Origin: Bacteroidales bacterium UBA2198
GTDB lineage: Bacteria; Bacteroidota; Bacteroidia; Bacteroidales; VadinHA17
Reading direction: 5' to 3'
Assembly (NCBI GenBank): GCA_002328625.1
Contig: DCVC01000260.1
Span: 1-53,489 of the forward strand
DNA: 53,489 nucleotides
The position numbers and the translations under genes were made by a program. The notes under the pieces are model-generated. The model made no database searches. It had not been told where the DNA came from and was given only the letters and a program-made list of their open reading frames with translations. Positions 5,846 through 42,367 of the stretch are shown one piece after another; position 1 is the first letter of the stretch; every line of letters begins with the position of its first letter.

Positions 5846-6012
5846 TTCACCTAACATAGTCACCCGACTAATCCAAAACCTTATATTTCATTTTCATTTT
5901 TAAATTTAAGTGAAGACAAATGAACCGGCATTATGTTTTGTTTCAATTTTGATCACAAATGTCCTGTTATAAAATTTGTTTCATTTTGTATAACACATGT
6001 GCCAGAATGGAT

Positions 6013-6360
6013 TCAGTTCAAGCTCCGCAACAATCTCATGGTCAAACCGCCCGCATGATCCAGGTCGCTGCCGGAGTCGAGGGAATCAAATTCCAGGGTA
6101 CCGGTAAAGGTCCGTCCCGCTTCGAAACAGACCACATCGCCCGGGGAAAGGTCCAGCAGGTTTACCCGGTCGATGCTCCGGAAGGGCTGGCGCAGGGTGC
6201 CCGGAGCATCATCGTTCCCGGATGGGGAAACGTAGTAGGTCCCTGCCTTGCCTCCCGGATTCAGGGTACAGCTCCAAAGAACTGCGATGCAGGTTGCTGC
6301 CAGTAATAGTCCTGACATAGCAAGGAACAGGAGAAGGATAAAGATTTTAACGTGTCTCAT
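6013..6360 (-). pseudogene. 3'-truncated N-terminal fragment of a right-handed parallel beta-helix (pectate-lyase-fold) secreted protein
   Basis: 115 aa. A signal peptide is followed by GTYYVSPSGNDDAPGTLRQPFRSIDRVNLLDLSPGDVVCFEAGRTFTGTLEF, the usual opening of beta-helix-repeat proteins, which are several hundred residues long. Here the frame stops after about 100 residues. Its start overlaps the GH2 stop (ATGA). It is much more GC-rich than its surroundings: spot counts give 36/60 G+C at 6121-6180, 24/60 at 6481-6540 and 14/60 at 5881-5940. Confidence 0.6.
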
Positions 6361-26058: not shown

Positions 26059-26178
26059 TTATTTAACCCTGTCAATATTGATAGCATGATGATATTTCCT
26101 TTGACTTTTTAGCATGCTGTAGTTACCAGAATCAGGAAAACAATCATTACCATCTGCTTTTGCCTTTATATCATCCAT
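26059..26178 (-). pseudogene. Degenerate copy (C) of the micro-ORF found at 33462..33578
   Basis: It starts MDDIKAKADGND..., compared with MDDLRVKEDGEN... in copy A. The DNA encoding the hydrophobic helix is still recognisable (tgattgttttcctgattctggt versus tgattattttcttgattctggt) but is out of frame because of a deletion relative to copy A. Confidence 0.5.
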
Positions 26179-26235
26179 TTTTAACCTATCGTCTTTCAAA
26201 CAAATCTAACCAGTAGTATTTAATTGGAAAGACAT

Positions 26236-26309
26236 TTTTGTTCCAAATCCGAGAACTAATGTTTCACTATTAATTATGTGTCAGTTTAAATAAATTATGT
26301 ATCAGGTGA
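26236..26309 (-). promoter_or_regulatory. Conserved cis-element, copy C (candidate HTCS operator/promoter)
   Basis: The minus strand reads CCTGATACATAATTTATTTAAACTGACACATAATTAATAGTGAAACATTAGTTCTCGGATTTGGAACAAAA. It aligns with copies at 33631..33705 and 39639..39712. The direct repeats ACATAATTTAT and ACATAATTAAT start 21 bp apart (plus-strand 26290-26300 and 26269-26279). Confidence 0.55.
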
Positions 26310-26408
26310 CATAAGAATCAAGAGAGAAATGAGATTGTTATTCCCTTTTCTTTCAATTATTGCTCTTCCGGCTTTTTTGCATCCCGGGCGCCCCCCGGTG
26401 GAAACTTT

Positions 26409-29500: not shown

Positions 29501-29886
29501 ACGAGTTGCGGTTTGATAACATGCTGACGGTAGATAAAATCATATTGATTTGTTTTATCAAGCGCACCCCATAACCTTCCGCCAATATCGGGGAAAACAT
29601 CGATTTTAATATACTCGTTTTCAAGGAATATCATTTTGTGTTCCTGGTCAACTTTCCTGTTTGTCAGGCTTTGGTTAAGCGGATAGGGATATATTCTTCC
29701 CTGAGCTCCCTGGTATGATCTCCCTTCGTAAAATATAGGGGTTGAGCTTGGCGGATCGACAAGATAGGTGGGAATGCTTACCGATTCTTCCCAAATCTGA
29801 ACAGGTTTGTTCGCGGGGGTTGTCTGTCCAAAGCTGCTTCCAAATGTTATGAGAAGCAGAAGCAAAATTACAGTTACTCTTAACAT
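26512..29886 (-). CDS. DUF5107-like N-terminal domain protein with a long C-terminal TPR array
   Basis: 1124 aa with a signal peptide. The N-terminal region (IPTYLVDPPSSTPIFYEGRSYQGAQGRIYPYP...FLENEYIKIDVFPDIGGRLWGALDKTNQYDFIYRQHVIKPQLVGMLGAWLEGGIEWNFPHHH) matches what I recall of DUF5107. The C-terminal half is repeated TPR-like helices (YYLGICQRFLGKEDEAYKNL..., YYFIGLVYEKMGNMRKAREAW...). Confidence 0.7.
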   Translation of the reverse strand: MLRVTVILLLLLITFGSSFGQTTPANKPVQIWEESVSIPTYLVDPPSSTPIFYEGRSYQGAQGRIYPYPLNQSLTNRKVDQEHKMIFLENEYIKIDVFPDIGGRLWGALDKTNQYDFIYRQHVIKPQLVGMLGAWLEGGIEWNFPHHHRPNAYMPVDYDLQTNSDGSATLWIGELELRDRMKFMLGISVYPGKSFFEVTFKPLNSTPFTNSFLYFANTSVHTNDNYQVIFPPSTLFGTYHAKNQFLRWPISHEVFNGIDYTKGVDVSWWKNHPDWTSIFAFNYTDDFLGGYDHGKNAGTIIVSNHNIAPGKKFWTWSNGPRGKAWDKALTDSDGPALELMVGGYSDNQPDYSWLQPYESKYLKQYWYPIREIGGVKNANIDAAVNLEFPAKGKARIGLNTTSARNGSRVVVTINGEVFLDEKINIDPAHPYVKEIPIPEIIRETDTRIALLTADEKELISYQPVEKQDLPLPPVAEPPKQPGQIGTVEELYQTGLRLTQFHNATLTPYPYYEEALKRDSGDYRVNTALGLLYLSRGMFNKAEEHLQTAVNRITANYTKPRDGEGYYYLGICQRFLGKEDEAYKNLYQATWSYAFHSAAYLQLAEIDCGRGNFDIALEHLDRSLSTNANNNRALNLKSAVLRKLGNNSEALETSTETMKFDHLDFCARYEKYLSLKNLGKNQESAEVLSELKNKLRGYTESYLELSIGYANAGLIDEAIDVLSNPGLVPENFGTSSPMISYYLGYYWSNKGDASKSLDFLKLASRTSPDYCFPFRIEEIGILEYAIKANPSDPKAPYYLGNLLYDFQPEKAVRLWEASREIDDGFSMVHRNLGYGYAKTNNDLPAAIASYEKAISLNNKDQRWFYDLDIMYAAARTDPAKRLKFLGANHVMLVNDNIVEGLSRELLLLVQLGQYDRALEIFRSRIFPQFEGVDRIYSPYLNALLLRGHKNLKEGKYKEALNDGLSALKYPDNMIIDQAYRGGRTGEVYYFIGLVYEKMGNMRKAREAWNEAVSLRESDRRVSSETAFYRASSLKKLGRKEEAEQLFDGLIRSGKARIEAEQIDFFEKFGERGTQDDRRSEGHYLAGLGYLGKDMLTEAGQEFTEAVKLNINNIWAKKYLFDLSSK

Positions 29887-33461: not shown

Positions 33462-33578
33462 TTATATAAGGAAAAGCATGCCAACCATAACAAACAGAAC
33501 CAGAATCAAGAAAATAATCAATTCCCATACTTTCAATCTTTTATTTTCACCATCTTCTTTTACCCTTAGATCATCCAT
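33462..33578 (-). CDS. Micro-ORF (38 aa) encoding a putative single-pass membrane peptide, copy A (intact)
   Basis: Too short to appear in the ORF track. The sequence from the ATG at 33578 to the TAA at 33462-33464 reads MDDLRVKEDGENKRLKVWELIIFLILVLFVMVGMLFLI*. A charged N-terminus is followed by a 19-residue hydrophobic helix. The first 14 codons are conserved in copy B and about 10 in copy C. It lies 222 nt upstream of the SSS transporter. Confidence 0.45.
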   Translation of the reverse strand: MDDLRVKEDGENKRLKVWELIIFLILVLFVMVGMLFLI

Positions 33579-33794
33579 ATTTTAAAGGTATTTGAATAAA
33601 ATTAGGCACATGGTTTTTAATTAAAAGCCTATTTTGTTTCAAATCCGACAAACAATGTTTCACAATAAACTATGTGTCAGTTTATATAAATTATGTAGCA
33701 GGAGAAAATTTGGCAAAGAAGATTCCAAATAGCAATTAAATCTGTTATAATGTTTAAGAACAGTACTTTACAGAGATTATTTCTTTATATATTC
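33538..33794. repeat. Long direct repeat, copy A (partner at 39546..39801)
   Basis: About 257 nt. By hand alignment there are 7 substitutions plus 1 single-base indel relative to copy B. It spans the first 14 codons of the micro-ORF, the conserved cis-element and the last 18 nt (including the stop) of the HTCS gene. Confidence 0.9.
33631..33705 (-). promoter_or_regulatory. Conserved cis-element, copy A (candidate HTCS operator/promoter)
   Basis: The minus strand reads CCTGCTACATAATTTATATAAACTGACACATAGTTTATTGTGAAACATTGTTTGTCGGATTTGAAACAAAATAGG. ACATAATTTAT (plus 33686-33696) and ACATAGTTTAT (33665-33675) start 21 bp apart. A third, weaker unit ACATTGTTTGT lies at 33648-33658. TGAAACA also occurs twice, 21 bp apart. 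Confidence 0.55.
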
Positions 33795-36700
33795 GGATGG
33801 AGTTTTTCCAAAGAGAGATTTGAAACATTTTGTGAAGTAAGCCGGTGATGTAAAACCGACCTTATATGAAACTTCCTCGACAGACAGACCACTATGTTCG
33901 AGGAGGTTGACTGCCCGTTTGAGTCTTAAAGTACGGATAAATTCAGAGGCAGACTGGGAAGTAAGAGCTGCAAGTTTCCGGTGAAGGCTGCTCCTGCTCA
34001 ATCCGATTTCCTTGCAGAACTTATCAGAACTAAAGTCAGGATCTGAGATATTTTTTTCTACAACTGATATTGCTTTCTGAATAAAATCAGCATCGATGGA
34101 TGTAACAGCAATATCTGATGGTTTAATTAAGAGTTCCTTACTGAATTTATTCCTGATGATTCTCCTATTTTCAAGAAGATTCCTTATCTGTACTTCAACC
34201 AGATCAATTGAAAAAGGTTTTTCAATATATGCATCCGCACCTTTTTCCAACCCTTCAATTTTGTTGTCCATTGATGATCGGGCCGTTAACATTATTATGG
34301 GAATATGACTGGTTCTGATCTCCTCTTTCAGCTTTTTGCACATCTCATTCCCATCCATGACAGGCATTATTATGTCAGCAATAATAATATCCGGGTTATT
34401 TCTAATGGCCATCTCAAGCCCGTTTAATCCATTAGAGGCTTCGCAAATACAGTAACTATTTTCGAAATGATCCCTGATATAGGTTCTGACTTCAACTTCA
34501 TCATCCACAACTAAAATTACAGGGCTCTTCGCTTGATTTCCAGGTTTATTATTTCTACCTGAGTATCTGCGGACATATTCATGCTCCTCAGTTAAGAGAT
34601 AAGATTGAAATGAACCCGTCATTTCTTTCTCTTCCCCGCTCACTCCTGATATCTGATCATCAGTCCAGATTTCGTTGCCTGTGGGCAGAAGTATCTTAAA
34701 ATTGGTGCCTTTATCTTCATCGCTTTGTATGAATATTTTACCCCTGTGAAGTTCGACCAGCTCTTTTGTTAATGCAAGCCCGATACCTGTTCCCCTCCGG
34801 ATGATAGAATCATGTCTTTCGATTCTGAAGAATCTCTCAAAAAGATGTCCCATTTGTTCCTGCGGAATACCTATGCCATTATCCTTTATTGTTATTTCAA
34901 TATACTCTCCATCAGGAATATCTAAGGAGGGATCAATTCCATTTTGCACCATTCTGCAAGTCACCTGGATTAATCCTCCATCCGGAGTATATTTGAATGC
35001 ATTTGACAGCAAGTTATACATGATCTTTTCCAGGCAGCTTTCGTCAAAATAACTTTCGCTGGCTTCAAATTCAGAAGTAAACTCCAGATTCATTGATCGC
35101 TGCTGAGAAATTTCATCAAATGAGCTGGTAATTTCTCTTAATTTTTCAACGACATCCCCTTTCTTCAATCTGAGTGTCATCTTGTTAAGATCAATCTTCC
35201 GTAAATCAGTGATCTGGTCTGTCAATCTTAAAAGCCGGTCCGCATTCTTCCTTATCAGAGTTGTTTGCTTAGCAAGTCTGGGATCATTTGCAACTGAAGC
35301 AATGATATTTTGCAAAGGAGCAAGGATCAATGAAAGCGGCGTACGAAACTCATGTGAAATATCGGTTAAGAGCTCCATTTTTACATTATAAAGCGCCTCT
35401 GCTTTTTCCCTTCTTACCTGCTGAAGCTTTGCATCATGTATTAAACGGGCTCTCATAAGTATTAACCTTCGGAACAGGTAAAGCAAAAAAATAAAGGCTA
35501 TTGAAAACAAGACAAGTGCAAAGGGGGTTCTCCACCATGGCGGCAATATCCGGATAGTCAAAACAGCTGGTTTTTCATTCCACACACCATCGCTGTTTGA
35601 GGCTTTAACCATGAACTGATATAATCCCTGCTCCAGGTTTGTGTATGTAACATATCTTCTGTCATAAGCGGTATAGATCCAATCCTGGTCAAAACCTTCC
35701 AGTTTATATGCGTACTGGGTTTCCTCCGGATCAAGGTTGTTCAAAGCGACAAATTCAAGAGAAAATGCTCTTTCAAGATGGGTCAATGTTATCTTATCTG
35801 TATACGGTATACTTTTGGATAGTATCTTTCTTCCATTTATTTCATCTCCTATCTTCACTTCTTTGTTCTGGATAACTAATCTTGAAATATAAACAGGATA
35901 TAATGTGGTATCATTCATGATCTTTTCCGGAAAAAAGCTGATGAGCCCGTTAATTCCGCCAAAAAATATTTCGCCATTCTCACTCTGGCAGCCGGCATCC
36001 CAGATAAAAGCATTTGACAGTATGCCATCACTTTCGTAATAGGTATTGATTTGTTCTGTTTTCGTTACCAGCTTTCCTAATCCATGATTTGTACTGAACC
36101 AGATATTATCATCCTTGTCACCTGCTATACTATATACGGAATTATCAGGAGCGCCTCTTGATTTATCATATTTTATAAATTCCATGCCTCCATCTTTTTC
36201 AGTAACTTTAATCAGTCCATTAACATTTGAAGCAAGCCATATTACATTATTTTTATCTTTATATATTTTAAGAAAGCCGTTGTCAATTTTTGAATTTCTA
36301 ATGTCAGTTATGTTATCATAAATAACCAGACTATCTTTTTTATTTAGATTGGTTAAAAGGGTATCTGAATTGACATAGAACTTGCACAGCCCCCTGTTCC
36401 AGGAGGCGAACCAGAAAACATTCGGCGGCTCATAAACAACCGATTGTATATTAATTCCTTTCATCTCAGGCAATTGATTTACCTTGTCTCCGTAGTGAAA
36501 AAGTTGTTTGCTGGCTGGTTCGTAAAGATAAAAACCCTTTATTGTGGCAATCCATATCCTGCCTGCAGCATCTTCTGTGATATCAGGAACTTCGGTATGG
36601 TCTTCAAAGAGAAACCTTCTGAATTTCAAATCATCTGAAGAATAGATATTTTCAGCAACACAAAAACCATTATCAAATGTCCCTATCCATAATCTGTTTC

Positions 36701-38027
36701 CCCTATCGGTATAAATAGCAGTAATGTAATCCGAACTGATTGAATTTCTGTCAGCAGGATCATATTTATAATGTAACATCCTCTGGCTTTCTCCGGACAT
36801 GATCCTGTTTAGCCCGTCATTATACATTCCTATCCACAAATTTCTGTTTTTGTCTTTATGGACTGATCTTACAATATTTCCGATTATGCTGTTTGGATCA
36901 CCCGGAATATTCCTATACCAGGTGAAATCCTTAAGATTAATCTTGACCTTTGACACACCTTTGCCTTTAAACGATACCCAGAGCACTCCAGTCCTGCCAC
37001 CATAAATACCGATAATTCTTTCATCCAGAAGCGATAGGGGATTATCAGGCTCATGTGAATATACTGAGTATTTGCCATCTTTTTTATTGATCTTAAAGAG
37101 GGATTTCTCAATTGCTATCCACATAAATCCTTTGTCATCTTCATAAAGAGCTGTTATTGGCTCTAAACTCCACAGGTACGTCTCAGTGGTACCGGGATTA
37201 AGTCTGCTAAGGTATCCCTGAAGAGTGCAAAAGCTGAGGGTTTCCTTATCAAACAGAGCAAGGCCGGCATTTGTACCAAGCCAGATCAGCCCTCCTTGAT
37301 CCATAACTGCAGAATTGATTTTTGTAACTCCCCGTAAAACATCCTCGCTTATGTAAAAATGTTCCAGTTGCTTTGTCAGGATGTCGAATTTTTTAAGCCT
37401 GTCAGAAGCAATCCACAACACGTTTCTACTCCTGTCATAAATAATATCTCCTTCAAGATCACCATGGAATTGCTCAGCACTTCTGGTGGTCCCTGCATTT
37501 ATTTTAATCAGTCCTGAAGTCATAGTATTGACCCATAAGAACCCTTCCGCATCCTGTACAATAACCTTTCGTCCTCTCTCGATTACATTGATATTTGATA
37601 CTGCTTTATTTAATGGATCGTTTTTCATATGGGAGAAAACATCCTTTTCCTTATCAAAAACATCCAATCCCTTCAGCGTTCCAATCCATATTTTCCCATC
37701 CCTGTCTTCAAAAAGTGTTGAAATGAAATTATAGGAGAGAGACGAAGTATCCTCTGAATTATTTACATAGTTGGTAAAATTGTAACCATCAAATTTCTGT
37801 AGGCCTGTTGTAGAAGCGAACCACGCAAAGCCTTCCCTGTCAACATAAACGTATTCAACACTGTTTGACAAACCGTTATTGACATTATAATGGGTGCAGA
37901 TTATGCTGTTATTCTGTGCAGATGATTCACAATTCAGGAAAATTAACGAAAATAATATGACTATTAAGAGCCTCGAAAAGGGATTCCCTGATAACATAAT
38001 AACTCTGAATGACAGTATAGGTATCAT
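33777..38027 (-). CDS. Hybrid two-component system (HTCS) sensor kinase / response regulator with an AraC-type HTH output
   Basis: 1416 aa. It contains periplasmic Reg_prop beta-propeller repeats plus a YYY domain, a TM helix (ALVLFSIAFIFLLYLF), HisKA (SHEFRTPL), HATPase (GTGIGLALTKELVELHRG), a receiver (ILVVDDEVEVR...DIIIADIIMPVMDG) and a C-terminal AraC HTH (VGFTSPAYFTKCFKSLFGKTPSEY). Confidence 0.96.
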   Translation of the reverse strand: MIPILSFRVIMLSGNPFSRLLIVILFSLIFLNCESSAQNNSIICTHYNVNNGLSNSVEYVYVDREGFAWFASTTGLQKFDGYNFTNYVNNSEDTSSLSYNFISTLFEDRDGKIWIGTLKGLDVFDKEKDVFSHMKNDPLNKAVSNINVIERGRKVIVQDAEGFLWVNTMTSGLIKINAGTTRSAEQFHGDLEGDIIYDRSRNVLWIASDRLKKFDILTKQLEHFYISEDVLRGVTKINSAVMDQGGLIWLGTNAGLALFDKETLSFCTLQGYLSRLNPGTTETYLWSLEPITALYEDDKGFMWIAIEKSLFKINKKDGKYSVYSHEPDNPLSLLDERIIGIYGGRTGVLWVSFKGKGVSKVKINLKDFTWYRNIPGDPNSIIGNIVRSVHKDKNRNLWIGMYNDGLNRIMSGESQRMLHYKYDPADRNSISSDYITAIYTDRGNRLWIGTFDNGFCVAENIYSSDDLKFRRFLFEDHTEVPDITEDAAGRIWIATIKGFYLYEPASKQLFHYGDKVNQLPEMKGINIQSVVYEPPNVFWFASWNRGLCKFYVNSDTLLTNLNKKDSLVIYDNITDIRNSKIDNGFLKIYKDKNNVIWLASNVNGLIKVTEKDGGMEFIKYDKSRGAPDNSVYSIAGDKDDNIWFSTNHGLGKLVTKTEQINTYYESDGILSNAFIWDAGCQSENGEIFFGGINGLISFFPEKIMNDTTLYPVYISRLVIQNKEVKIGDEINGRKILSKSIPYTDKITLTHLERAFSLEFVALNNLDPEETQYAYKLEGFDQDWIYTAYDRRYVTYTNLEQGLYQFMVKASNSDGVWNEKPAVLTIRILPPWWRTPFALVLFSIAFIFLLYLFRRLILMRARLIHDAKLQQVRREKAEALYNVKMELLTDISHEFRTPLSLILAPLQNIIASVANDPRLAKQTTLIRKNADRLLRLTDQITDLRKIDLNKMTLRLKKGDVVEKLREITSSFDEISQQRSMNLEFTSEFEASESYFDESCLEKIMYNLLSNAFKYTPDGGLIQVTCRMVQNGIDPSLDIPDGEYIEITIKDNGIGIPQEQMGHLFERFFRIERHDSIIRRGTGIGLALTKELVELHRGKIFIQSDEDKGTNFKILLPTGNEIWTDDQISGVSGEEKEMTGSFQSYLLTEEHEYVRRYSGRNNKPGNQAKSPVILVVDDEVEVRTYIRDHFENSYCICEASNGLNGLEMAIRNNPDIIIADIIMPVMDGNEMCKKLKEEIRTSHIPIIMLTARSSMDNKIEGLEKGADAYIEKPFSIDLVEVQIRNLLENRRIIRNKFSKELLIKPSDIAVTSIDADFIQKAISVVEKNISDPDFSSDKFCKEIGLSRSSLHRKLAALTSQSASEFIRTLRLKRAVNLLEHSGLSVEEVSYKVGFTSPAYFTKCFKSLFGKTPSEYIKK

Positions 38028-38090
38028 ATATACCAGATTAATATAAACTCAAATTTAAACTAAAATGTTGATTACGGCAAAAAAGATATA

Positions 38091-38453
38091 TCACATTTTC
38101 AATGACTTCAGATATCTTGTCTTTCCGTAAGGACACACAGAAACGCAGATGCCGCATACCCTTGCATCGGGCATGATGTATTTTTTCCCCATGATCCTGC
38201 ACATCCCGCGGCATTTGAAAGCATTCAGCAAGAAATCACTCTGAACAGAGACATTCCAGTCATTTCCGGATGTCGCACAATGAACGGCCGCACTAAAAGT
38301 TTTTTGGCTGGTCAGAACATACAAATGTCCCTGCTTATTGATCTCATCGTGTAGGATTGTTCGTCCTGGCTGCTTTCGCAACTGTTGAAGCAGAAATAGA
38401 GGTTCATTTATCAAAGTTAGGCTTGCGTATTGTTTTCCACATAACCTTGCCAC
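38091..38453 (-). CDS. Hypothetical Cys-rich 120-aa ORF, possibly a frameshifted tail of the upstream beta-propeller gene
   Basis: It overlaps the propeller gene by 50 nt in another frame. It contains GHLYVLTSQKTFSA (a blade-like strand) and a single partial ferredoxin-like motif C-G-I-C-V-S-V-C-P-Y-G. I recognised no family. Confidence 0.3.
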   Translation of the reverse strand: MARLCGKQYASLTLINEPLFLLQQLRKQPGRTILHDEINKQGHLYVLTSQKTFSAAVHCATSGNDWNVSVQSDFLLNAFKCRGMCRIMGKKYIMPDARVCGICVSVCPYGKTRYLKSLKM

Positions 38454-39456
38454 CCATGCTCATGCAGCACAGGCCATCACGTTTGTTGTTTGTTGAGAAC
38501 TGGGCATAGAAATATCCATTATACAATATTGGTGGTTTGGTGTGATCACCGAAATCATTATGTTTGAAAAGCTCTTTTACAGTATAGCTGCCATCAACCC
38601 TTTTTTCGACTTTTATCATTGCTGTTCCGAGGTCATATCCTCCAACTGCCATAATCCTGCCTTCGCCGGCATCAAAAGCTGGAGCTATCTGAATGACATT
38701 CTCCCAGTCGTTGTATTCCCAGAGAATTTTCCCGGTTTGTGGTTTCATCCCGATTATCCTGCCCCGGGAAACAAAAGATGAAAATATCATTACGAGGTGA
38801 TCCTCTCCCGCAATCTTTACAATGGTCGGACTGGCGTAAGTTTCATTTCCAATGGCTTCTGTCTTCCAGATGATATCTCCTGTCAGCTTGTTATAGGCGA
38901 CCAATCCGGCATCAGGATCCCTGGAGTAAGATACGATTAACAGATTGCCGTATATAAGCGGACATTGGGTTATCGCCCACACCGGTATTTTCGTTCCCCC
39001 GAAATCCTTCATTATGTTCTTGTTCCAGACAGGCTTATGTGTATTGACATCAATGCAGTAAAGATCACCATATGGGCAACAGGAGTAAATCCTGTTGCCA
39101 TCGGTTGAAGGAACACTTCTTGAACCGGGGTACTGAATTGATCCCGGTGCATCATAACTGTATCTCCATAATTCCTTCCCGGTGTTCAGGTCAAAACACC
39201 TCATAATATCGCCGGTTTTATCATCCCTGTCGAGTAAATAAACCTTTCCCGTTTTTACTACGGGACCGCCGTACCCGGGGCCTATATTTGATGTCCAGAG
39301 TACTTGCGGACTTTCTGCTGGCCAGCTGCGGAGTATTCCCTTCTGGGGTGAAGTGTTATTCCTCTTTGGTCCGAGGAACTGAGGCGAGTCCTGGGCAGTA
39401 AGACTGGTAAATCCTGCCAGCAGGACCATTGCAAATATGAATGTTCGTTTTATCAT
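38404..39456 (-). CDS. PQQ-like (BamB-like) beta-propeller repeat protein, secreted
   Basis: I set the start at ATG 39456 (MIKRTFIFAMVLLAGFTSLTAQDS, a signal peptide). The track start at 39561 would add 35 residues derived from repeat copy B. Repeated blades have W...G.G.s.P.v..G.vY...........D..TGk..W patterns (VLWTSNIGPGYGGPVVKTGKVYLL...CFDLNTGKELWRY). Confidence 0.8.
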   Translation of the reverse strand: MIKRTFIFAMVLLAGFTSLTAQDSPQFLGPKRNNTSPQKGILRSWPAESPQVLWTSNIGPGYGGPVVKTGKVYLLDRDDKTGDIMRCFDLNTGKELWRYSYDAPGSIQYPGSRSVPSTDGNRIYSCCPYGDLYCIDVNTHKPVWNKNIMKDFGGTKIPVWAITQCPLIYGNLLIVSYSRDPDAGLVAYNKLTGDIIWKTEAIGNETYASPTIVKIAGEDHLVMIFSSFVSRGRIIGMKPQTGKILWEYNDWENVIQIAPAFDAGEGRIMAVGGYDLGTAMIKVEKRVDGSYTVKELFKHNDFGDHTKPPILYNGYFYAQFSTNNKRDGLCCMSMGGKVMWKTIRKPNFDK

Positions 39457-39545
39457 ACGTGATTTGAAACAAAAAACTGACAGCTTAAAGTAATCAATGA
39501 TATTCGAAAAATTACATAAAGGATTGATTAGAAGGGAAAAATCTC

Positions 39546-39801
39546 CTTTTATTATCACCATCTTCTTTTACCTTTAGATAATCCATATTTTAAAGGTATT
39601 TGAATACAATTAGGCACATGGTTTTTAATTAAAAGACTATTTTGTTTCAAATCCGACAAACAATGTTTCACAATAAACTATGTGTCAGTTTATAAAATTA
39701 TGTAGCAGGAGAAAATTTGGCAAAGAAGATTCCAAACAGCAATTAAATCTGTTATAATGTTTAAGAACAGTACCTTACAGAGATTATTTCTTTATATATT
39801 C
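39546..39801. repeat. Long direct repeat, copy B (partner at 33538..33794)
   Basis: See copy A. Here the HTCS-tail 18-mer (ttatttctttatatattc) is not attached to any HTCS gene. It abuts the abiEi C-terminal fragment. The micro-ORF is cut after MDYLKVKEDGDNKR and runs into the beta-propeller upstream region. Confidence 0.9.
39639..39712 (-). promoter_or_regulatory. Conserved cis-element, copy B, placed upstream of the beta-propeller/HTCS genes
   Basis: It is nearly identical to copy A. A 1-nt deletion in the r1-r2 spacer makes the repeat spacing 20 instead of 21. Confidence 0.5.
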
Positions 39802-40262
39802 CGCATTACATATTCTTGACTTGACAACGCAACCTTCACTTAAAGAACAGATAGTTGTCCCAAAGCAAGTCAGGCCTTCTGTTTTAACCTTAAAAAATGT
39901 TCCATTTCAAATCATCTACCATAATGAGAATCATTTTTTCGGTTATCGAAAGACATGGATTGACAGTTATAACAAAGTAAATTGCTCAGATCTTGAAAAA
40001 ACTATAATCGATTGTCTTTTTAATCCTGGTTACGCAGGTGGTATCGTTGATATTGCAAAGGCTATTTATGTTTCGAAAGACCAATTCGATTTTAAAAAGT
40101 TATTCGAGTATATTAAAAGATTTAATTCTCAGGCTGTAATAAAACGAATGGGATTTCTATTCGAATTACTTGAAATAAAGAACAATATTATAAATGCTCT
40201 TCAACATTTGAAAACAGCTTCATATATTCTGATTGATCCTCAACTTCCAAAAAAAGGAAAAA
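39794..40262 (+). pseudogene. abiEi: abiEi (type IV TA antitoxin) C-terminal portion, on the opposite strand to its own N-terminal portion
   Basis: The plus frame reads ...IYSALHILDLTTQPSLKEQIVVPKQVRPS...FGYRKTWIDSYNKVNCSDLEKTIIDCLFNPGYAGGIVDIAKAIYVSK..FDFKKLFEYIKRFNSQAVIKRMGFLFELLEI...YILIDPQLPKKGK. This matches the AbiEi pattern SAL..hGLT.Q ... sd.EKTl.DCl..p.yaGG ... kRlGyLlE ... LDP.lp.kG. There is no ATG (the track used TTG at 39821). Beyond 40262 the frame is antisense to the N-terminal fragment. Confidence 0.65.
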
Positions 40263-40467
40263 TGATCAGCAGAAGGCACTCCGCTGCCAGGTGCCAGTCA
40301 GGCATGAAAGAACCAGAATCCTGTTCATACGGAATAATGAAATACTTGTCTTCTTTCAATCTCTTCAACAGCCCTCGTCTTGTCATATCACTAAGTAATT
40401 CTCTGACTGCACTTTCTTTAGAATCGGGGAGGGCATTAAACGCCTCCTTATAATCAAAACAATTCAT
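40240..40467 (-). pseudogene. abiEi: abiEi N-terminal winged-helix portion
   Basis: MNCFDYKEAFNALPDSKESAVRELLSDMTRRGLLKRLKEDKYFIIPYEQDSGSFMPDWHLAAECL... is the AbiEi N-terminal wHTH pattern (..lL..l.kkG.L.rl.rG.Y.i.P.e......p.w.iA..L). Homology is lost at about 40266-40272, and the frame stops at 40240. Confidence 0.6.
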
Positions 40468-40665
40468 GTCCTTTTGCCTAAACCAGGCCAGAAAAAATAA
40501 ATTATTACTTATAGGCCAATTGTCAGGATTAACCTGACTGTAGTGATATAGAACATAATTATGTAAATAATAAATGACTCTTTTGCTTATGCAAGAGGTG
40601 GAGGATTGAGGCTAGGAGCAAAAGCAAATGTGCCATTTTTAGTATGTCACTGAATTTTAAAAGTT

Positions 40666-40938
40666 TTGCGCGCGGGCAAATTCCTGGTAGAAGGTACAGA
40701 GTTTTCGTTTCACGATGAGGCATACTTGAAGGCAGGAATTAGTCCTGCTATCACCTGTAGAAATGCTGTCTGCTTGCACTTTAGGCTTGCCCATAACTCT
40801 TTTATAACTTCCTATTATATCAAAAGTGTTGAAAATGGTACTGCATTATCAGCAAGAAAAAATATCATGGATTTAAGAGATGGATTATTTGCCGGAAATA
40901 AAGAGATAAGCGTTAAAATAAACAATTTAGTCTCTTGA
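40666..40938 (+). CDS. Hypothetical ORF (TTG start) with no recognisable family
   Basis: 90 codons are open with a non-ATG start, in an AT-rich scar region. It may be non-coding. Confidence 0.15.
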   Translation: MRAGKFLVEGTEFSFHDEAYLKAGISPAITCRNAVCLHFRLAHNSFITSYYIKSVENGTALSARKNIMDLRDGLFAGNKEISVKINNLVS

Positions 40939-41038
40939 TCTTAATTAATCACACACATACAATTAACTGTCATATAATGTCTTAACCAATTTGCTATATA
41001 CGAGTTTTCACACTCAATTTATTTTTAAATGGCAACTC

Positions 41039-41263
41039 TCAACATTCTTTGACTAATTCTGATTCGAGTAAATTTACATACCAGGCTGCAGGGTAATTTT
41101 TCTTAAGTTCTGTATTATCAATCTGAATGCGGTATACTCTCTTTCGTGGCAAATAAAACAAACTTCCGATGCCGCCCTTATGATTAATACTCTTGGTTTT
41201 CACATAGCCATATGCAATAATATTGTATCCGGCAGCTTCAAGTGCTTCTATACGATCAGCCAA
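41039..41263 (-). CDS. Hypothetical small protein (about 74 aa, non-ATG start)
   Basis: The frame is open from a TAA at about 41276, with TTG as the only start candidate. It reads ADRIEALEAAGYNIIAYGYVKTKSINHKGGIGSLFYLPRKRVYRIQIDNTELKKNYPAAWYV. I recognised no family. Confidence 0.25.
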   Translation of the reverse strand: MADRIEALEAAGYNIIAYGYVKTKSINHKGGIGSLFYLPRKRVYRIQIDNTELKKNYPAAWYVNLLESELVKEC

Positions 41264-41300
41264 ATTATGTGTACCTTAAATAATTGCAGCTATTTCAGCT

Positions 41301-41711
41301 TCAATTTGAATTATTGTCTTGTTCATTATCAGATTGATTAATTTGGTTGTTATTTTCTTTGAACAATTCCATTATTTCTTTCACCTTCTTACGTTCAAAG
41401 TATTTTATCGAGTGGATTAATTTCCACCAGTAATGCCTAAAAACCCTGACCCAAATTATTTCATACCAACGTTCTGTTCTTTGGTGACGGCATATGTATA
41501 ATTCTCCATTTTCGTCTGGTAAATTTTGATTTTTAGTCACACCTGAATAGATATAAACTATTCCTGCAATTGTTTTATCAATTTCTTCAAATGATTTAAT
41601 TGAATAGCATTCATACATTACTTCATCGAAGTAATGCCATGCCCAATTTTCTGTTTCTGCGAAAATGTAACACCAGTTACCACTTTCAAATTCTGCTTTA
41701 TAAACTTTCAT
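41301..41711 (-). CDS. Hypothetical Trp/Tyr-rich 136-aa protein with an Asn/Gln/Asp-rich tail
   Basis: It has an ATG start (MKVYKAEFESGNWCYIFAETENWAWHYFDEV...) and a low-complexity tail NNNQINQSDNEQDNNSN. I recognised no family. It is cytoplasmic (no signal peptide). Confidence 0.4.
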   Translation of the reverse strand: MKVYKAEFESGNWCYIFAETENWAWHYFDEVMYECYSIKSFEEIDKTIAGIVYIYSGVTKNQNLPDENGELYICRHQRTERWYEIIWVRVFRHYWWKLIHSIKYFERKKVKEIMELFKENNNQINQSDNEQDNNSN

Positions 41712-41993
41712 TTCTTAAATATTTTATACTCTACAATTTATTTGTCATAGTCAGCTGTTTGACTACATTAATAAATATGTTAGCAAGGGAGCAAAAGGAC
41801 AAATTTTATTTTTTTTTAACATTTGTTTTGCGAAGAAAAAAACCATAAACCGAATCAGCTTAAGAAGTTACCGCCTGCTGGTTCATTCGTGGTCTTACCT
41901 GACACTGCTCAGGTTTATTTTTTTCAGTAAGATTAGATCTGTGTTCTGTTCCAACTCAGACTTTATTCTGTGATCAGAGGTAAAAGAGTAATA

Positions 41994-42017
41994 TTTTTGT
42001 ACTACTTTTTGTACTAC
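41994..42017. repeat. Perfect 12-bp tandem duplication TTTTTGTACTAC x2
   Basis: tttttgtactac (41994-42005) and tttttgtactac (42006-42017), located 64 nt upstream of the integrase remnant. Confidence 0.9.
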
Positions 42018-42080
42018 TAATGAAAATGGCCTTGTATATATCTGATTTACACGGTCATTAGATTTAACTTGTCGGGGTGA

Positions 42081-42314
42081 GAAGATCTGTTAAAAATACT
42101 TGCCGAGAAAGAAGAATACAAAGAATTAAAATTCAAGACTGATCACACCAGCCATAATTTCAGGGACACTTTCATATCATTAGCAGTCATAAAGGGAGTA
42201 AACTGGAAAAGCATACTGAAATGGGTTGGCCAATCTTCATATAGCATTATGGATCGATACATTCATCTGACAAAACCGTTTGAAGAGAGCGAGATGAAAA
42301 AGATGTTTGGTTAA
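42081..42314 (+). pseudogene. Tyrosine recombinase (phage-integrase family) C-terminal remnant
   Basis: The frame is open only from 42081, with no start codon: ...KFKTDHTSHNFRDTFISLAVIKGVNWKSILKWVGQSSYSIMDRYIHLTKPF...*. This contains the H-x-x-R box (SHNFRDT), the second box with Q in place of the usual H (GQSS versus GHSS) and the catalytic Tyr (DRYIHL). About 77 codons remain of a protein that is normally several hundred residues long. Confidence 0.7.
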
Positions 42315-42367
42315 TTTATCAACAGATCTTATACTCCATATCCCTATGACGGCTGAGTTTATGTAAT

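What the first reader, a model, noticed from the sequence alone, without database searches (positions are those of the whole stretch)
33538..39801. A roughly 256-bp, about 97% identical direct repeat brackets the HTCS and beta-propeller genes and includes the HTCS 3' end
- Copy A (33538-33794) and copy B (39546-39801) differ by 7 substitutions and 1 indel in my hand alignment.
- Both contain the last 18 nt of the HTCS coding sequence plus its stop, yet copy B is attached to no HTCS gene. It abuts an abiEi fragment instead.
- Copy B must therefore derive from a duplicated HTCS-downstream region whose gene was lost.
- One consequence is that the putative HTCS-responsive promoter now lies upstream of the beta-propeller and HTCS genes, a potential positive autoregulatory loop.
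- A second consequence is that homologous recombination between the repeats would excise a 6,008-bp segment carrying the regulator, which could switch the whole PUL off.
Basis: partly seen in the sequence, partly recalled or inferred. Interest (0 to 1): 0.65.

Follow-up and report, generated by a model that had tools for sequence, protein, structure and literature searches.

The report
Duplicated sugar-locus promoter flanking its regulator
The 256-bp repeat is real: it is a recent extra copy of the control region that sits just after a polysaccharide-sensing regulator gene, pasted upstream of a newly inserted neighbouring gene. This is an ordinary genome rearrangement, and there is no evidence that it works as a genetic switch.

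Summary
**Observation: confirmed.**
- Copy A (33538-33794) and copy B (39546-39801) differ by 7 substitutions and 1 indel (96.9%, E 3e-119).
- Both copies appear in three independent assemblies. Contigs cross all four boundaries, and the shared part has about twice the depth of the flanks.

**What it is.**
- The repeat is an arbitrary slice of the locus's main promoter-leader, which lies on the minus strand.
- In order it holds 15 nt plus the stop of the regulator gene (a hybrid two-component system, HTCS), four TGRnACA sites spaced 21/17/21 nt, a TAnnTTT -7 box, and the first 13 codons of a conserved 38-aa membrane smORF.
- The same array heads two more operons in the window: C at 26304 and D at 6004, upstream of susC. 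It also follows every orthologous HTCS examined.
- A is the parent copy. B is lineage-specific.

**How B got there.**
- The closest relative (L163) has AbiEi-AbiEii-HTCS.
- In the window AbiEii is gone, AbiEi is split with its C-terminal part inverted, and copy B plus a propeller gene lie in between.
- The AbiEi/B junction shows 5 nt of microhomology.
- A lost second HTCS is possible but not required.

**Function.**
- Autoregulation is plausible but unproven.
- B alone carries a mutated -7 box and a 20-nt spacing, and the HTCS keeps its own conserved promoter.
- No A/B deletion junction was seen, but the data were insensitive.

Interest is modest.

The parts
33538..33794 (-). Copy A, the parental promoter-leader. 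It holds the last 15 nt plus TAA of the HTCS, a weak hairpin, the four-site operator array, the -7 box, the 5' UTR and the first 13 codons of the smORF.
   Evidence: It is collinear with the region downstream of the HTCS in L163, L164, L166, L167 and L045.
39546..39801 (-). Copy B, the derived copy, ending 89 nt upstream of the propeller start codon (39456). Its smORF is truncated and fused to 11 unrelated codons (39586->39512).
   Evidence: It is absent from all relatives examined.
33635..33700 (-). Operator array of A: four sites, TGCTACA, TGACACA, TGAAACA and TGAAACA, starting at 33700, 33679, 33662 and 33641 (spacing 21/17/21).
   Evidence: score 23 of 24; 0 hits in 20 shuffles.
39643..39707 (-). 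Operator array of B. Sites 2-4 are in register. Site 1 is shifted by the 1-nt deletion, so the site 1-to-2 spacing is 20 instead of 21.
   Evidence: It is not recovered by the fixed-spacing scan.
33597..33604 (-). -7 box of A (TAATTTTA), 37 nt after the start of site 4.
   Evidence: TAnnTTT is present at this position in 11 of 12 elements.
39605..39612 (-). -7 box of B, mutated to TAATTGTA. It is the only element with a changed T at this position.
   Evidence: A 33599 A, B C on the + strand.
26125..26320 (-). Copy C, an older and diverged copy (77% to A) between the DUF5107 stop and the sulfatase start. The array lies at 26304->26239 and the -7 box TAGATTTG at 26208. Its smORF is broken by the same deletions as in L163.
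5901..6004 (-). Copy D. The operator array lies at 6004->5939 with the same 21/17/21 geometry, and a TAAATTTA box lies at 5908->5901, again 37 nt after the start of site 4. It sits upstream of susC (start 5716).
   Evidence: Orthologous arrays lie upstream of susC in L164 and L166, and upstream of the second susC-like gene of L169.
33777..38027 (-). Hybrid two-component system regulator of 1416 aa: Reg_prop/Y_Y_Y sensor, HisKA, HATPase, receiver and AraC-type HTH.
   Evidence: Orthologues at 61-87% identity.
38050..38084 (-). The HTCS's own promoter candidate, TTTG-N20-TAAATTTG. The -7 box region is conserved in L163, L164 and L166.
38404..39456 (-). Secreted PQQ_2/BamB-like beta-propeller of 350 aa from the MIKRTF start. 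It is a lineage-specific insertion between AbiE and the HTCS.
   Evidence: Orthologues at 53-80% identity are never next to this HTCS or this element.
33462..33578 (-). smORF of 38 aa, a single-pass membrane peptide and the first ORF of the operon. The A/B repeat boundary cuts it at codon 14.
   Evidence: (called as a gene).
39797..40272 (+). AbiEi C-terminal piece (L163 nt 1530-2005), inverted relative to its N-terminal piece. Junction J2 with copy B lies at the TATTC microhomology, 39797-39801.
40273..40509 (-). AbiEi N-terminal piece in its ancestral orientation. Junction J1 lies at 40272|40273. Thirty nt between the two pieces, the last 58 nt of AbiEi and all of AbiEii are missing.
   Evidence: (J1 seen in all four runs).

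Best explanation
**What the element is.** The repeat is a recent, non-mobile segmental duplication of the main promoter-leader of this polysaccharide utilisation locus (PUL). The element lies on the minus strand. In its native place (copy A) it starts just inside the 3' end of the HTCS gene. It then carries four TGRnACA direct repeats spaced 21/17/21 nt, which I infer to be the operator for the HTCS's AraC-type DNA-binding domain. A Bacteroidetes-type -7 box (TAnnTTT) follows 37 nt after the start of the last site. The element ends with a short leader and the start of a conserved 38-aa membrane smORF that heads the operon.

**The regulon it belongs to.** The same operator and promoter design heads two other transcription units in the window. 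C heads the sulfatase and the genes after it, and D heads susC/susD. I infer that the element is the cis-regulatory unit of this HTCS's regulon.

**How copy B arose.** Copy B is a 256-bp slice of A whose two ends cut two coding sequences. It was placed upstream of a beta-propeller gene that is itself a lineage-specific insertion between the ancestral AbiEi-AbiEii pair and the HTCS. The same rearrangement, or a cluster of rearrangements, had these effects:
- It deleted AbiEii and the AbiEi 3' end.
- It inverted 476 bp of AbiEi.
- It lost 30 nt at the inversion breakpoint.
- It joined AbiEi to copy B at a 5-nt microhomology, which is the mark of illegitimate or template-switch recombination.

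**Consequence (inferred).** The propeller gene, and perhaps the HTCS by read-through, acquired an HTCS-type promoter. Copy B now shows signs of relaxed constraint, and the HTCS retains its own promoter. Any positive feedback is therefore at most an add-on.

**The repeats as a deletion substrate.** The direct repeats are a passive substrate for RecA-type deletion of the 6-kb propeller-HTCS segment. They are not a programmed switch.
For: **Shown directly.**
- Repeat identity and boundaries.
- Presence in three assemblies, with contigs over all four boundaries and twofold depth of the shared part.
- Both repeat ends lie inside coding sequences: the HTCS, 15 nt before its stop, and the smORF at codon 14.

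**A is the parent.**
- All orthologous HTCS genes with downstream sequence are followed by one such element: L004/L164/L165, L163, L166, L167, L045, L168, L169, L171 and L172.
- None has a copy upstream of the HTCS, and none has the propeller.

**The operator inference.**
- The fixed-spacing scan finds 15 arrays scoring at least 22 of 24 in 10 sources. All lie in intergenic regions on the gene strand, and there are 0 hits in 20 shuffles of the window.
- Spacing is invariant and the -7 box sits at a constant 37-nt distance.
- Second arrays lie upstream of susC in the window, L164, L166 and L169.
- Ravcheev et al. 2013 predicted that HTCS motifs are direct repeats about 21 bp apart (PMC3878776).

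**The rearrangement.**
- L163 (HTCS 87% identical) has AbiEi, AbiEii, HTCS, the element, then the sulfatase.
- L065 has an intact AbiEi upstream of the HTCS. L168 has an AbiEii fragment there.
- The window's AbiEi C-terminal piece is inverted, with a 30-nt loss, a 58-nt 3' loss and the TATTC microhomology.
- J1 is seen in four runs and J2 in three.

**Age.**
- A and B differ by 3.1%.
- Strains differ by 0.14% or less.
- Orthologous elements differ by 19-22%.

**Relaxed constraint on B.**
- Outgroups and a 99%-identical strain (X6) polarise 4 changes to B and 4 to A.
- The B-derived changes include the -7 box T>G, the spacing-changing deletion and Asp3>Tyr of the dead smORF.
- The A-derived changes lie at non-conserved bases or are conservative (Lys>Arg, Asp>Glu).
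Against: - No experiment or transcript data exist. No RNA run holds the region, so promoter and operator status rest on comparative genomics alone.
- No intermediate genome was found. The order and number of events, the source of the propeller gene, and whether a longer piece or a whole HTCS copy was first duplicated are all unknown.
- A 5-nt microhomology in AT-rich DNA is weak evidence on its own.
- The contrast between B-derived and A-derived changes is not significant. Three of 4 against 0 of 4 hit conserved features, one-sided Fisher p about 0.07 by my own arithmetic.
- Sites 2-4 of B are intact, so B may still be fully HTCS-responsive.
Confidence: 0.72

Rival explanations
1. The whole 6,008-bp unit (propeller, HTCS and promoter) was tandemly duplicated. 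The upstream propeller-HTCS copy was then deleted down to its last 15-18 nt, leaving copy B as the scar of a lost second HTCS.
For: - The repeat begins inside the HTCS 3' end.
- Tandem duplication followed by deletion is a common route to flanking direct repeats.
- The older A/C pair likewise brackets a gene block, SSF-AraA-DUF5107.
- The deletion and inversion at AbiEi could be the event that removed the upstream copy.
Against: - Only 13-18 nt of HTCS remain, and 5 of them are shared with AbiEi.
- No relative or co-occurring strain shows two HTCS copies.
- It needs at least two large events where one complex event suffices.
- The final structure is identical under both routes, so present data cannot separate them.
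Confidence: 0.25
2. A and B are old paralogous promoters, like C and D, kept nearly identical by gene conversion. They are not the product of a recent duplication.
For: - Four copies of the promoter design exist in the locus.
- Identical runs of up to 58 nt would permit conversion.
Against: - Identity starts and stops abruptly, with no residual similarity outside the repeat.
- The tract includes useless fragments, the HTCS stop region and a truncated smORF.
- No relative has any element upstream of its HTCS.
- The A/B differences are the same in all three assemblies.
Confidence: 0.06
3. The repeats are the recombination sites of a programmed excision or phase switch that turns the PUL off by removing its regulator.
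For: - Direct repeats of 256 bp bracket the regulator.
- Deletion would leave one hybrid element in front of the smORF-SSF operon.
Against: - No recombinase or integrase gene was recognised among the flanking ORFs scanned.
- No deletion joint or circle junction appears in 8 runs. No joint of any kind appears at the repeat boundaries.
- Excision would be irreversible.
- The repeat boundaries are arbitrary cuts in coding sequences.
- The one 'opposite strands' joint is a 156-nt contig of a related intact AbiEi. It is not evidence of inversion at this locus.
Confidence: 0.03
4. The repeat is a mobile element (MITE, IS end or att site), or an assembly artefact.
For: Several copies occur in one window.
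Against: - There are no terminal inverted repeats and no target-site duplication. Inverted-repeat searches gave only short chance matches.
- There is no tRNA and no Rfam family.
- Copies occur only at orthologous operon heads.
- Three assemblies and contig-level support exclude an artefact.
Confidence: 0.02

Closest known systems
HTCS-dependent PUL promoters of Bacteroides, with AraC-type direct-repeat operators (for example the predicted BT4663 sites before BT4662, BT4658 and BT4675; Ravcheev et al. 2013, PMC3878776)
   Same: - Direct repeats of conserved sites about 21 bp apart.
- Located upstream of susC-like genes and other operons of the same locus.
- Several operons per regulon.
- The regulator is encoded next to its targets.
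   Different: - This locus has four sites (21/17/21) rather than two.
- The motif, TGRnACA, belongs to an uncharacterised HTCS orthogroup from uncultured Bacteroidales of hydrocarbon and sediment communities.
- Binding is untested.
- One promoter copy lies upstream of the regulator's own neighbourhood.
Segmental duplication or templated insertion at rearrangement breakpoints (illegitimate, microhomology-mediated recombination)
   Same: - The boundaries are arbitrary and cut coding sequences.
- There is a 5-nt microhomology at one junction.
- Deletion and inversion accompany it at the same site.
- The source lies 6 kb away on the same strand.
   Different: The mechanism was not observed. A larger tandem duplication followed by deletion gives the same end product.
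AbiE (AbiEi antitoxin / AbiEii toxin) type IV toxin-antitoxin, abortive-infection module
   Same: The flank of copy B is AbiEi by profile match. Relatives carry the intact overlapping AbiEi-AbiEii pair at this position.
   Different: In the window the module is dead. AbiEi is split, partly inverted and truncated, and AbiEii is absent. It plays no part in the repeat other than as the breakpoint.
Small membrane peptides that feed back on sensor kinases (MgrB-PhoQ type). A functional analogy for the smORF only, recalled from my own knowledge.
   Same: It is a 38-48-aa single-pass membrane peptide. It is encoded as the first ORF of the operon that the adjacent sensor-regulator is inferred to activate.
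   Different: - There is no sequence similarity.
- No interaction or phenotype data exist.
- The smORF is broken in L163 and in copies B and C, so it is dispensable at least there.

Membership tests
HTCS (AraC-type) operator / PUL promoter | Direct repeat of conserved sites about 21 bp apart | tested here: met
   TGRnACA occurs four times with 21/17/21 spacing in 15 arrays, and 0 hits in shuffles. The architecture matches PMC3878776.
HTCS (AraC-type) operator / PUL promoter | Located upstream of PUL operons, including susC, next to the regulator gene, and conserved in orthologous loci | tested here: met
   Arrays lie after every orthologous HTCS with downstream sequence. They also lie upstream of susC in the window, L164, L166 and L169.
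HTCS (AraC-type) operator / PUL promoter | Bound by the cognate HTCS DNA-binding domain, with transcription induced by the cognate glycan | not testable with these tools
   No RNA runs are available. EMSA and reporter assays are needed.
Bacteroidetes primary-sigma promoter (-33 TTTG / -7 TAnnTTTG; consensus from my own knowledge) | -7 box TAnnTTTG at a fixed distance from the start of the first ORF | tested here: met
   A has TAATTTTA, C has TAGATTTG and D has TAAATTTA. The TAnnTTT core is present in 11 of 12 elements.
Bacteroidetes primary-sigma promoter (copy B specifically) | Intact -7 box | tested here: not met
   B reads TAATTGTA, with an otherwise invariant T changed.
Segmental duplication by illegitimate recombination | Two copies in one genome, a lineage-specific derived copy, and boundaries unrelated to functional units | tested here: met
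Segmental duplication by illegitimate recombination | Microhomology or filler at the novel junctions | tested here: inconclusive
   TATTC (5 nt) at the AbiEi/B junction, and a blunt J1. The B/propeller junction cannot be judged without the pre-insertion sequence.
Mobile element / integrase att repeat | Terminal inverted repeats, target-site duplication, and a transposase or integrase or tRNA target | tested here: not met
   The Pfam scans show no recombinase among the neighbours.
Programmed excision or inversion switch | Both forms present in the population, and a dedicated recombinase | tested here: not met
   No deletion joint in 8 runs, although contig data are insensitive. No recombinase was found.
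AbiE toxin-antitoxin module | Intact AbiEi plus AbiEii gene pair | tested here: not met
   Only two AbiEi fragments are present and there is no AbiEii. The pair is intact in L163.

The most novel reading that the evidence does not exclude
The operator-promoter module acts as a portable regulon-entry cassette. Copying it in front of a newly acquired gene recruits that gene into the HTCS regulon in one step. In this locus that would be the propeller gene, and earlier perhaps the SSF-AraA-DUF5107 block bracketed by A and C. The resulting direct repeats then drive gain and loss of whole gene blocks, the regulator included, by homologous recombination. This would explain why gene content downstream of this element differs in every relative examined. 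In the window it would also create a glycan-triggered positive feedback on the HTCS through read-through from copy B.
Probability: 0.25. Interest if true: 0.5.

Novelty: new member of a known kind. Interest (0 to 1): 0.3.

Why it matters
- It gives a concrete, testable operator and promoter model for an uncharacterised HTCS orthogroup: four TGRnACA sites spaced 21/17/21 nt, a -7 box 37 nt after the start of the last site, and four promoters in one locus.
- It is a dated natural example of a promoter being copied in front of a newly inserted gene.
- For genome annotation, it shows that the 'HTCS 3' end' beside AbiEi is a rearrangement scar, not evidence of a lost regulator.
- It shows that the 6-kb regulator segment sits between recombination-competent repeats.
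- None of this changes current understanding of PUL regulation.

Tried and rejected
- **Rfam and tRNA scans of the window:** nothing found.
- **Inverted repeats at the AbiEi inversion breakpoints**, as a sign of a site-specific invertase: only short chance matches.
- **The 'opposite strands' joint 39797/40274 in run X2.** It first looked like the un-inverted form. Laying the runs on L065 showed that it is a 156-nt contig of a related, collinear AbiEi with the same depth (3.61) and a 48-nt side. It says nothing about this locus.
- **A/B deletion junction or circle:** none in 8 runs. These are Logan contigs at about 4x depth, so absence is weak evidence.
- **RNA runs:** none listed.
- **Propeller orthologues in metagenomes**, searched for an intermediate arrangement: 80 loci at 53-80% identity. 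None lies next to the orthologous HTCS or carries the element.
- **A susC 5' remnant downstream of copy A**, suggested by a MAFFT alignment: no significant similarity, so I dropped the idea.
- **Sigma-70 and terminator consensus scan:** uninformative for Bacteroidetes.
- **Pfam on the AbiEi fragments:** no hit. PADLOC profiles were needed.
- **smORF-like peptides after paralogous HTCS genes:** of the 26 HTCS loci with enough downstream sequence, only the two orthologues (L004, L045) carry one. None of the other 24 does, nor any reverse-strand control. The smORF is therefore specific to the orthogroup.

Full report
**1.

The repeat finder, MAFFT and BLAST all give a direct repeat at A 33538-33794 and B 39546-39801. 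The copies differ by 7 substitutions and one single-base indel, which is 96.9% identity with E 3e-119. They lie 6008/6007 nt apart.

All genes in this region are on the minus strand. In reading direction the order is:
- AbiEi N-terminal piece
- inverted AbiEi C-terminal piece
- copy B
- a secreted PQQ_2/BamB-like propeller (real start 39456, MIKRTF... signal peptide)
- a 376-nt spacer
- the HTCS (33777-38027, 1416 aa)
- copy A
- an SSF symporter, AraA, and a DUF5107-TPR protein
- a sulfatase, and so on down to susC/susD

The repeat holds 15 coding nt plus the TAA of the HTCS, 18 nt in all. The outermost 5 nt are ambiguous, as explained in section 5.

The repeat is not an assembly artefact. Three independent metagenome assemblies carry the identical arrangement. 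In a hydrocarbon metagenome, Logan contigs cross all four repeat boundaries without mismatch in at least three runs each. Unitigs shared by the two copies have about twice the depth of the flanks.

**2. What the repeated segment contains**

A self-BLAST of the window found a third, diverged copy. Copy C lies at 26125-26309, is 77% identical to A, and sits in the same orientation between the DUF5107 stop and the sulfatase start.

I fetched orthologous HTCS loci at 61-87% protein identity: L004/L164/L165, L163, L166, L167, L045, L168, L169, L171 and L172. I then aligned the region downstream of each HTCS.

The overall sequence diverges freely, but three features do not.
- **Four TGRnACA sites** start 21, 17 and 21 nt apart.
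- **A TAnnTTT box** lies 37 nt after the start of the fourth site. It fits the Bacteroidetes -7 consensus TAnnTTTG, which I cite from my own knowledge.
- **A small ORF of 38-48 codons** lies about 25-40 nt further on. It encodes a basic N-terminus followed by one hydrophobic helix. In the window it is 33578->33462, MDDLRVKEDGENKRLKVWELIIFLILVLFVMVGMLFLI.

A fixed-geometry scan, requiring at least 20 of 24 specified bases, found 15 arrays in the window and nine loci. All are intergenic and on the gene strand. There were no hits in 20 shuffles of the window.

The scan also uncovered a fourth copy in the window. Copy D lies at 6004->5939 upstream of susC, again with a TAAATTTA box 37 nt after the start of site 4. 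Second arrays lie upstream of susC in L164, L166 and L169.

Ravcheev et al. predicted that Bacteroides HTCS operators are direct repeats with a mean distance of 21 bp, often before several operons of one locus (PMC3878776). I therefore read the element as the HTCS-dependent operator and promoter of this regulon. In more distant relatives it is simply the susC promoter (L045, L167, L168, L169, L172). This is inference from conservation. No transcript data could be found.

**3. Copy A is the parent and copy B is the derived copy**

Every orthologous locus has one element directly after the HTCS stop. None has one upstream of the HTCS, and none has the propeller there.

Copy B starts 15 nt before the HTCS stop and ends at codon 14 of the smORF. 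In B the smORF runs into 11 unrelated codons and a stop. Both ends of the repeat are therefore arbitrary cuts through coding sequences that are native only to the A context. This argues against a mobile element or a discrete functional cassette. There are no terminal inverted repeats, no target duplication, no tRNA and no Rfam hit.

The dates fit a recent event. A and B differ by 3.1%. The sampled strains differ by 0.14% or less and all share the duplication. The nearest orthologous elements differ by 19-22%.

**4. The older A/C pair**

C and the single element of L163 share the same two deletions that break the smORF, and both run straight into the sulfatase gene. C is thus orthologous to the element of L163. 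A groups instead with L164 and L166, which have an intact smORF.

The A/C pair brackets SSF-AraA-DUF5107 and is therefore old. Duplication of this promoter has happened before in this locus family. Gene content downstream of the element differs in every relative: sulfatase, a truncated sulfatase, GH42, susC, or SSF. Not all of these differences lie between element copies, so I do not claim that the element caused them.

**5. The flank of copy B and how B got there**

The ORF next to B matches AbiEi profiles (PADLOC PDLC02267, E 1.5e-54, profile positions 90-235). A 75-aa ORF on the other strand matches profile positions 19-73.

The closest relative, L163, has intact overlapping AbiEi (273 aa) and AbiEii (271 aa) genes directly upstream of the HTCS, in the same orientation. 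L065 has an intact AbiEi there, and L168 has an AbiEii fragment. AbiE is therefore the ancestral upstream neighbour of this same HTCS.

Relative to L163, the window shows the following:
- It keeps AbiEi nt 1193-1499 in place (window 40561->40273).
- It lacks 30 nt (L163 1500-1529).
- It carries nt 1530-2005 inverted (window 39797-40272).
- It lacks the last 58 nt of AbiEi and all of AbiEii.
- In their place it has copy B, 89 nt, the propeller gene, and a 376-nt spacer.

The AbiEi/B junction falls in TATTC (39797-39801). This sequence is present both at the HTCS 3' end and at that point of AbiEi in L163 and L065, so it is a 5-nt microhomology.

Both novel junctions are supported by contigs. J1 appears in four runs and J2 in three.

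An inversion, small deletions, microhomology and a copied patch from 6 kb away are together what illegitimate or template-switch recombination produces. A 6-kb tandem duplication of propeller-HTCS-promoter, followed by a deletion and inversion that removed the upstream copy, gives the same end product.

No second HTCS is seen anywhere, and at most 18 nt of one remain. The flank is ancestral, but it is the neighbour of this HTCS rather than unrelated to it.

The source of the propeller gene is unknown. Eighty metagenomic orthologues at 53-80% identity sit in other glycan-degradation contexts, never beside this HTCS or this element.

**6. Does copy B work?**

Sites 2-4 of the operator are intact and in register in B. 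However, B is the only one of the 12 elements compared with a changed base in the TTT core of the -7 box (TAATTTTA to TAATTGTA). It is also the only element with 20 instead of 21 nt between sites 1 and 2.

Outgroups polarise the eight A/B differences as four B-derived and four A-derived. So does a 99%-identical strain (run X6), which carries B-type letters at 33565 and 33730 in its own A copy.
- The B-derived set includes the -7 box change, the spacing change and Asp3>Tyr of the dead smORF.
- The A-derived set lies at unconserved bases or is conservative (Lys>Arg, Asp>Glu).

This pattern suggests purifying selection on A and relaxed constraint on B, but the numbers are too small to prove it.

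The HTCS also keeps its own promoter candidate, TTTG-N20-TAAATTTG, at 38084->38050. Its -7 box region is conserved in L163, L164 and L166. Positive autoregulation through B is therefore possible but would only add to that promoter. I give it roughly 35-40%.

**7. Excision**

Recombination between A and B would indeed delete 6,008 bp, carrying the propeller and the HTCS. It would leave one hybrid element in front of smORF-SSF. Identical runs of up to 58 nt are long enough for RecA-type recombination in model bacteria, by my own knowledge.

I found no deletion joint in eight runs. Those runs are low-coverage Logan contigs, which drop rare variants. No recombinase gene is nearby, and the event would be irreversible. 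The repeats are a liability, not a switch.

**8. Verdict**

The feature is real and well explained. It is a recent segmental duplication of an HTCS-dependent PUL promoter-leader, placed in front of a newly inserted gene during a rearrangement that destroyed an AbiE module.

It is a new member of a known kind. The by-products are more useful than the repeat itself. They are a testable operator model with four promoters in one locus, and a conserved membrane smORF specific to this HTCS orthogroup.

Noticed in passing
window 33462-33578 (-): A conserved small ORF of 38 aa encoding a single-pass membrane peptide. It is the first ORF after the HTCS and the first gene of the inferred HTCS-activated operon. 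A 38-48 aa version is present after 8 of 12 orthologous elements despite free nucleotide divergence. It is absent after the other 24 HTCS loci (mostly about 25-35% identical) with enough downstream sequence. It has no Pfam match. It might be a feedback peptide acting on the sensor (an MgrB-like idea), which is untested.
   Followed up: partly
window 5901-6004 (-): A fourth copy of the operator array plus -7 box, upstream of susC (start 5716). It is too diverged for BLAST but has identical 21/17/21 and 37-nt geometry. Orthologous arrays lie upstream of susC in L164 and L166, and upstream of the second susC-like gene of L169.
   Followed up: yes
window 39797-40509; L163 1242-2875: A dead AbiE toxin-antitoxin module. 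AbiEi is split, with 476 bp inverted and 30 nt plus 58 nt lost, and AbiEii is deleted. An intact or partial AbiE sits directly upstream of the orthologous HTCS in three relatives. This is an unexpectedly stable linkage between a defence module and a PUL regulator.
   Followed up: partly
window 6013-6360 (-): A 115-codon N-terminal fragment of a beta-helix (pectate-lyase-like) gene with 56% GC against 41% for the window. Its ATG overlaps the stop of the upstream gene (ATGA). L166 has a full 532-aa beta-helix gene at this position.
   Followed up: no
window 40468-42367: An AT-rich (33% GC), ORF-poor stretch that varies between strains. Assembly L002 diverges beyond 42320. Logan contigs show skips 40435->40664 and 40493->40568, and loose ends at 40493.
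   Followed up: partly
window 34822-35413: A second HTCS variant, about 94% identical, co-occurs in the same hydrocarbon metagenome runs (36 mismatches in one 592-nt contig). A related strain or species is therefore present.
   Followed up: no
L164 11521-12141; L166 10330-10698; L163 7771-9288: The gene directly after the promoter element differs in every close relative: a full sulfatase, a 206-aa truncated sulfatase, or GH42. The head of this PUL is a hot spot for deletions.
   Followed up: partly
window 29512-29652 and 396-537: A 142-nt stretch is 70% similar between the DUF5107 gene and the region downstream of susD (E 5e-9).
   Followed up: no
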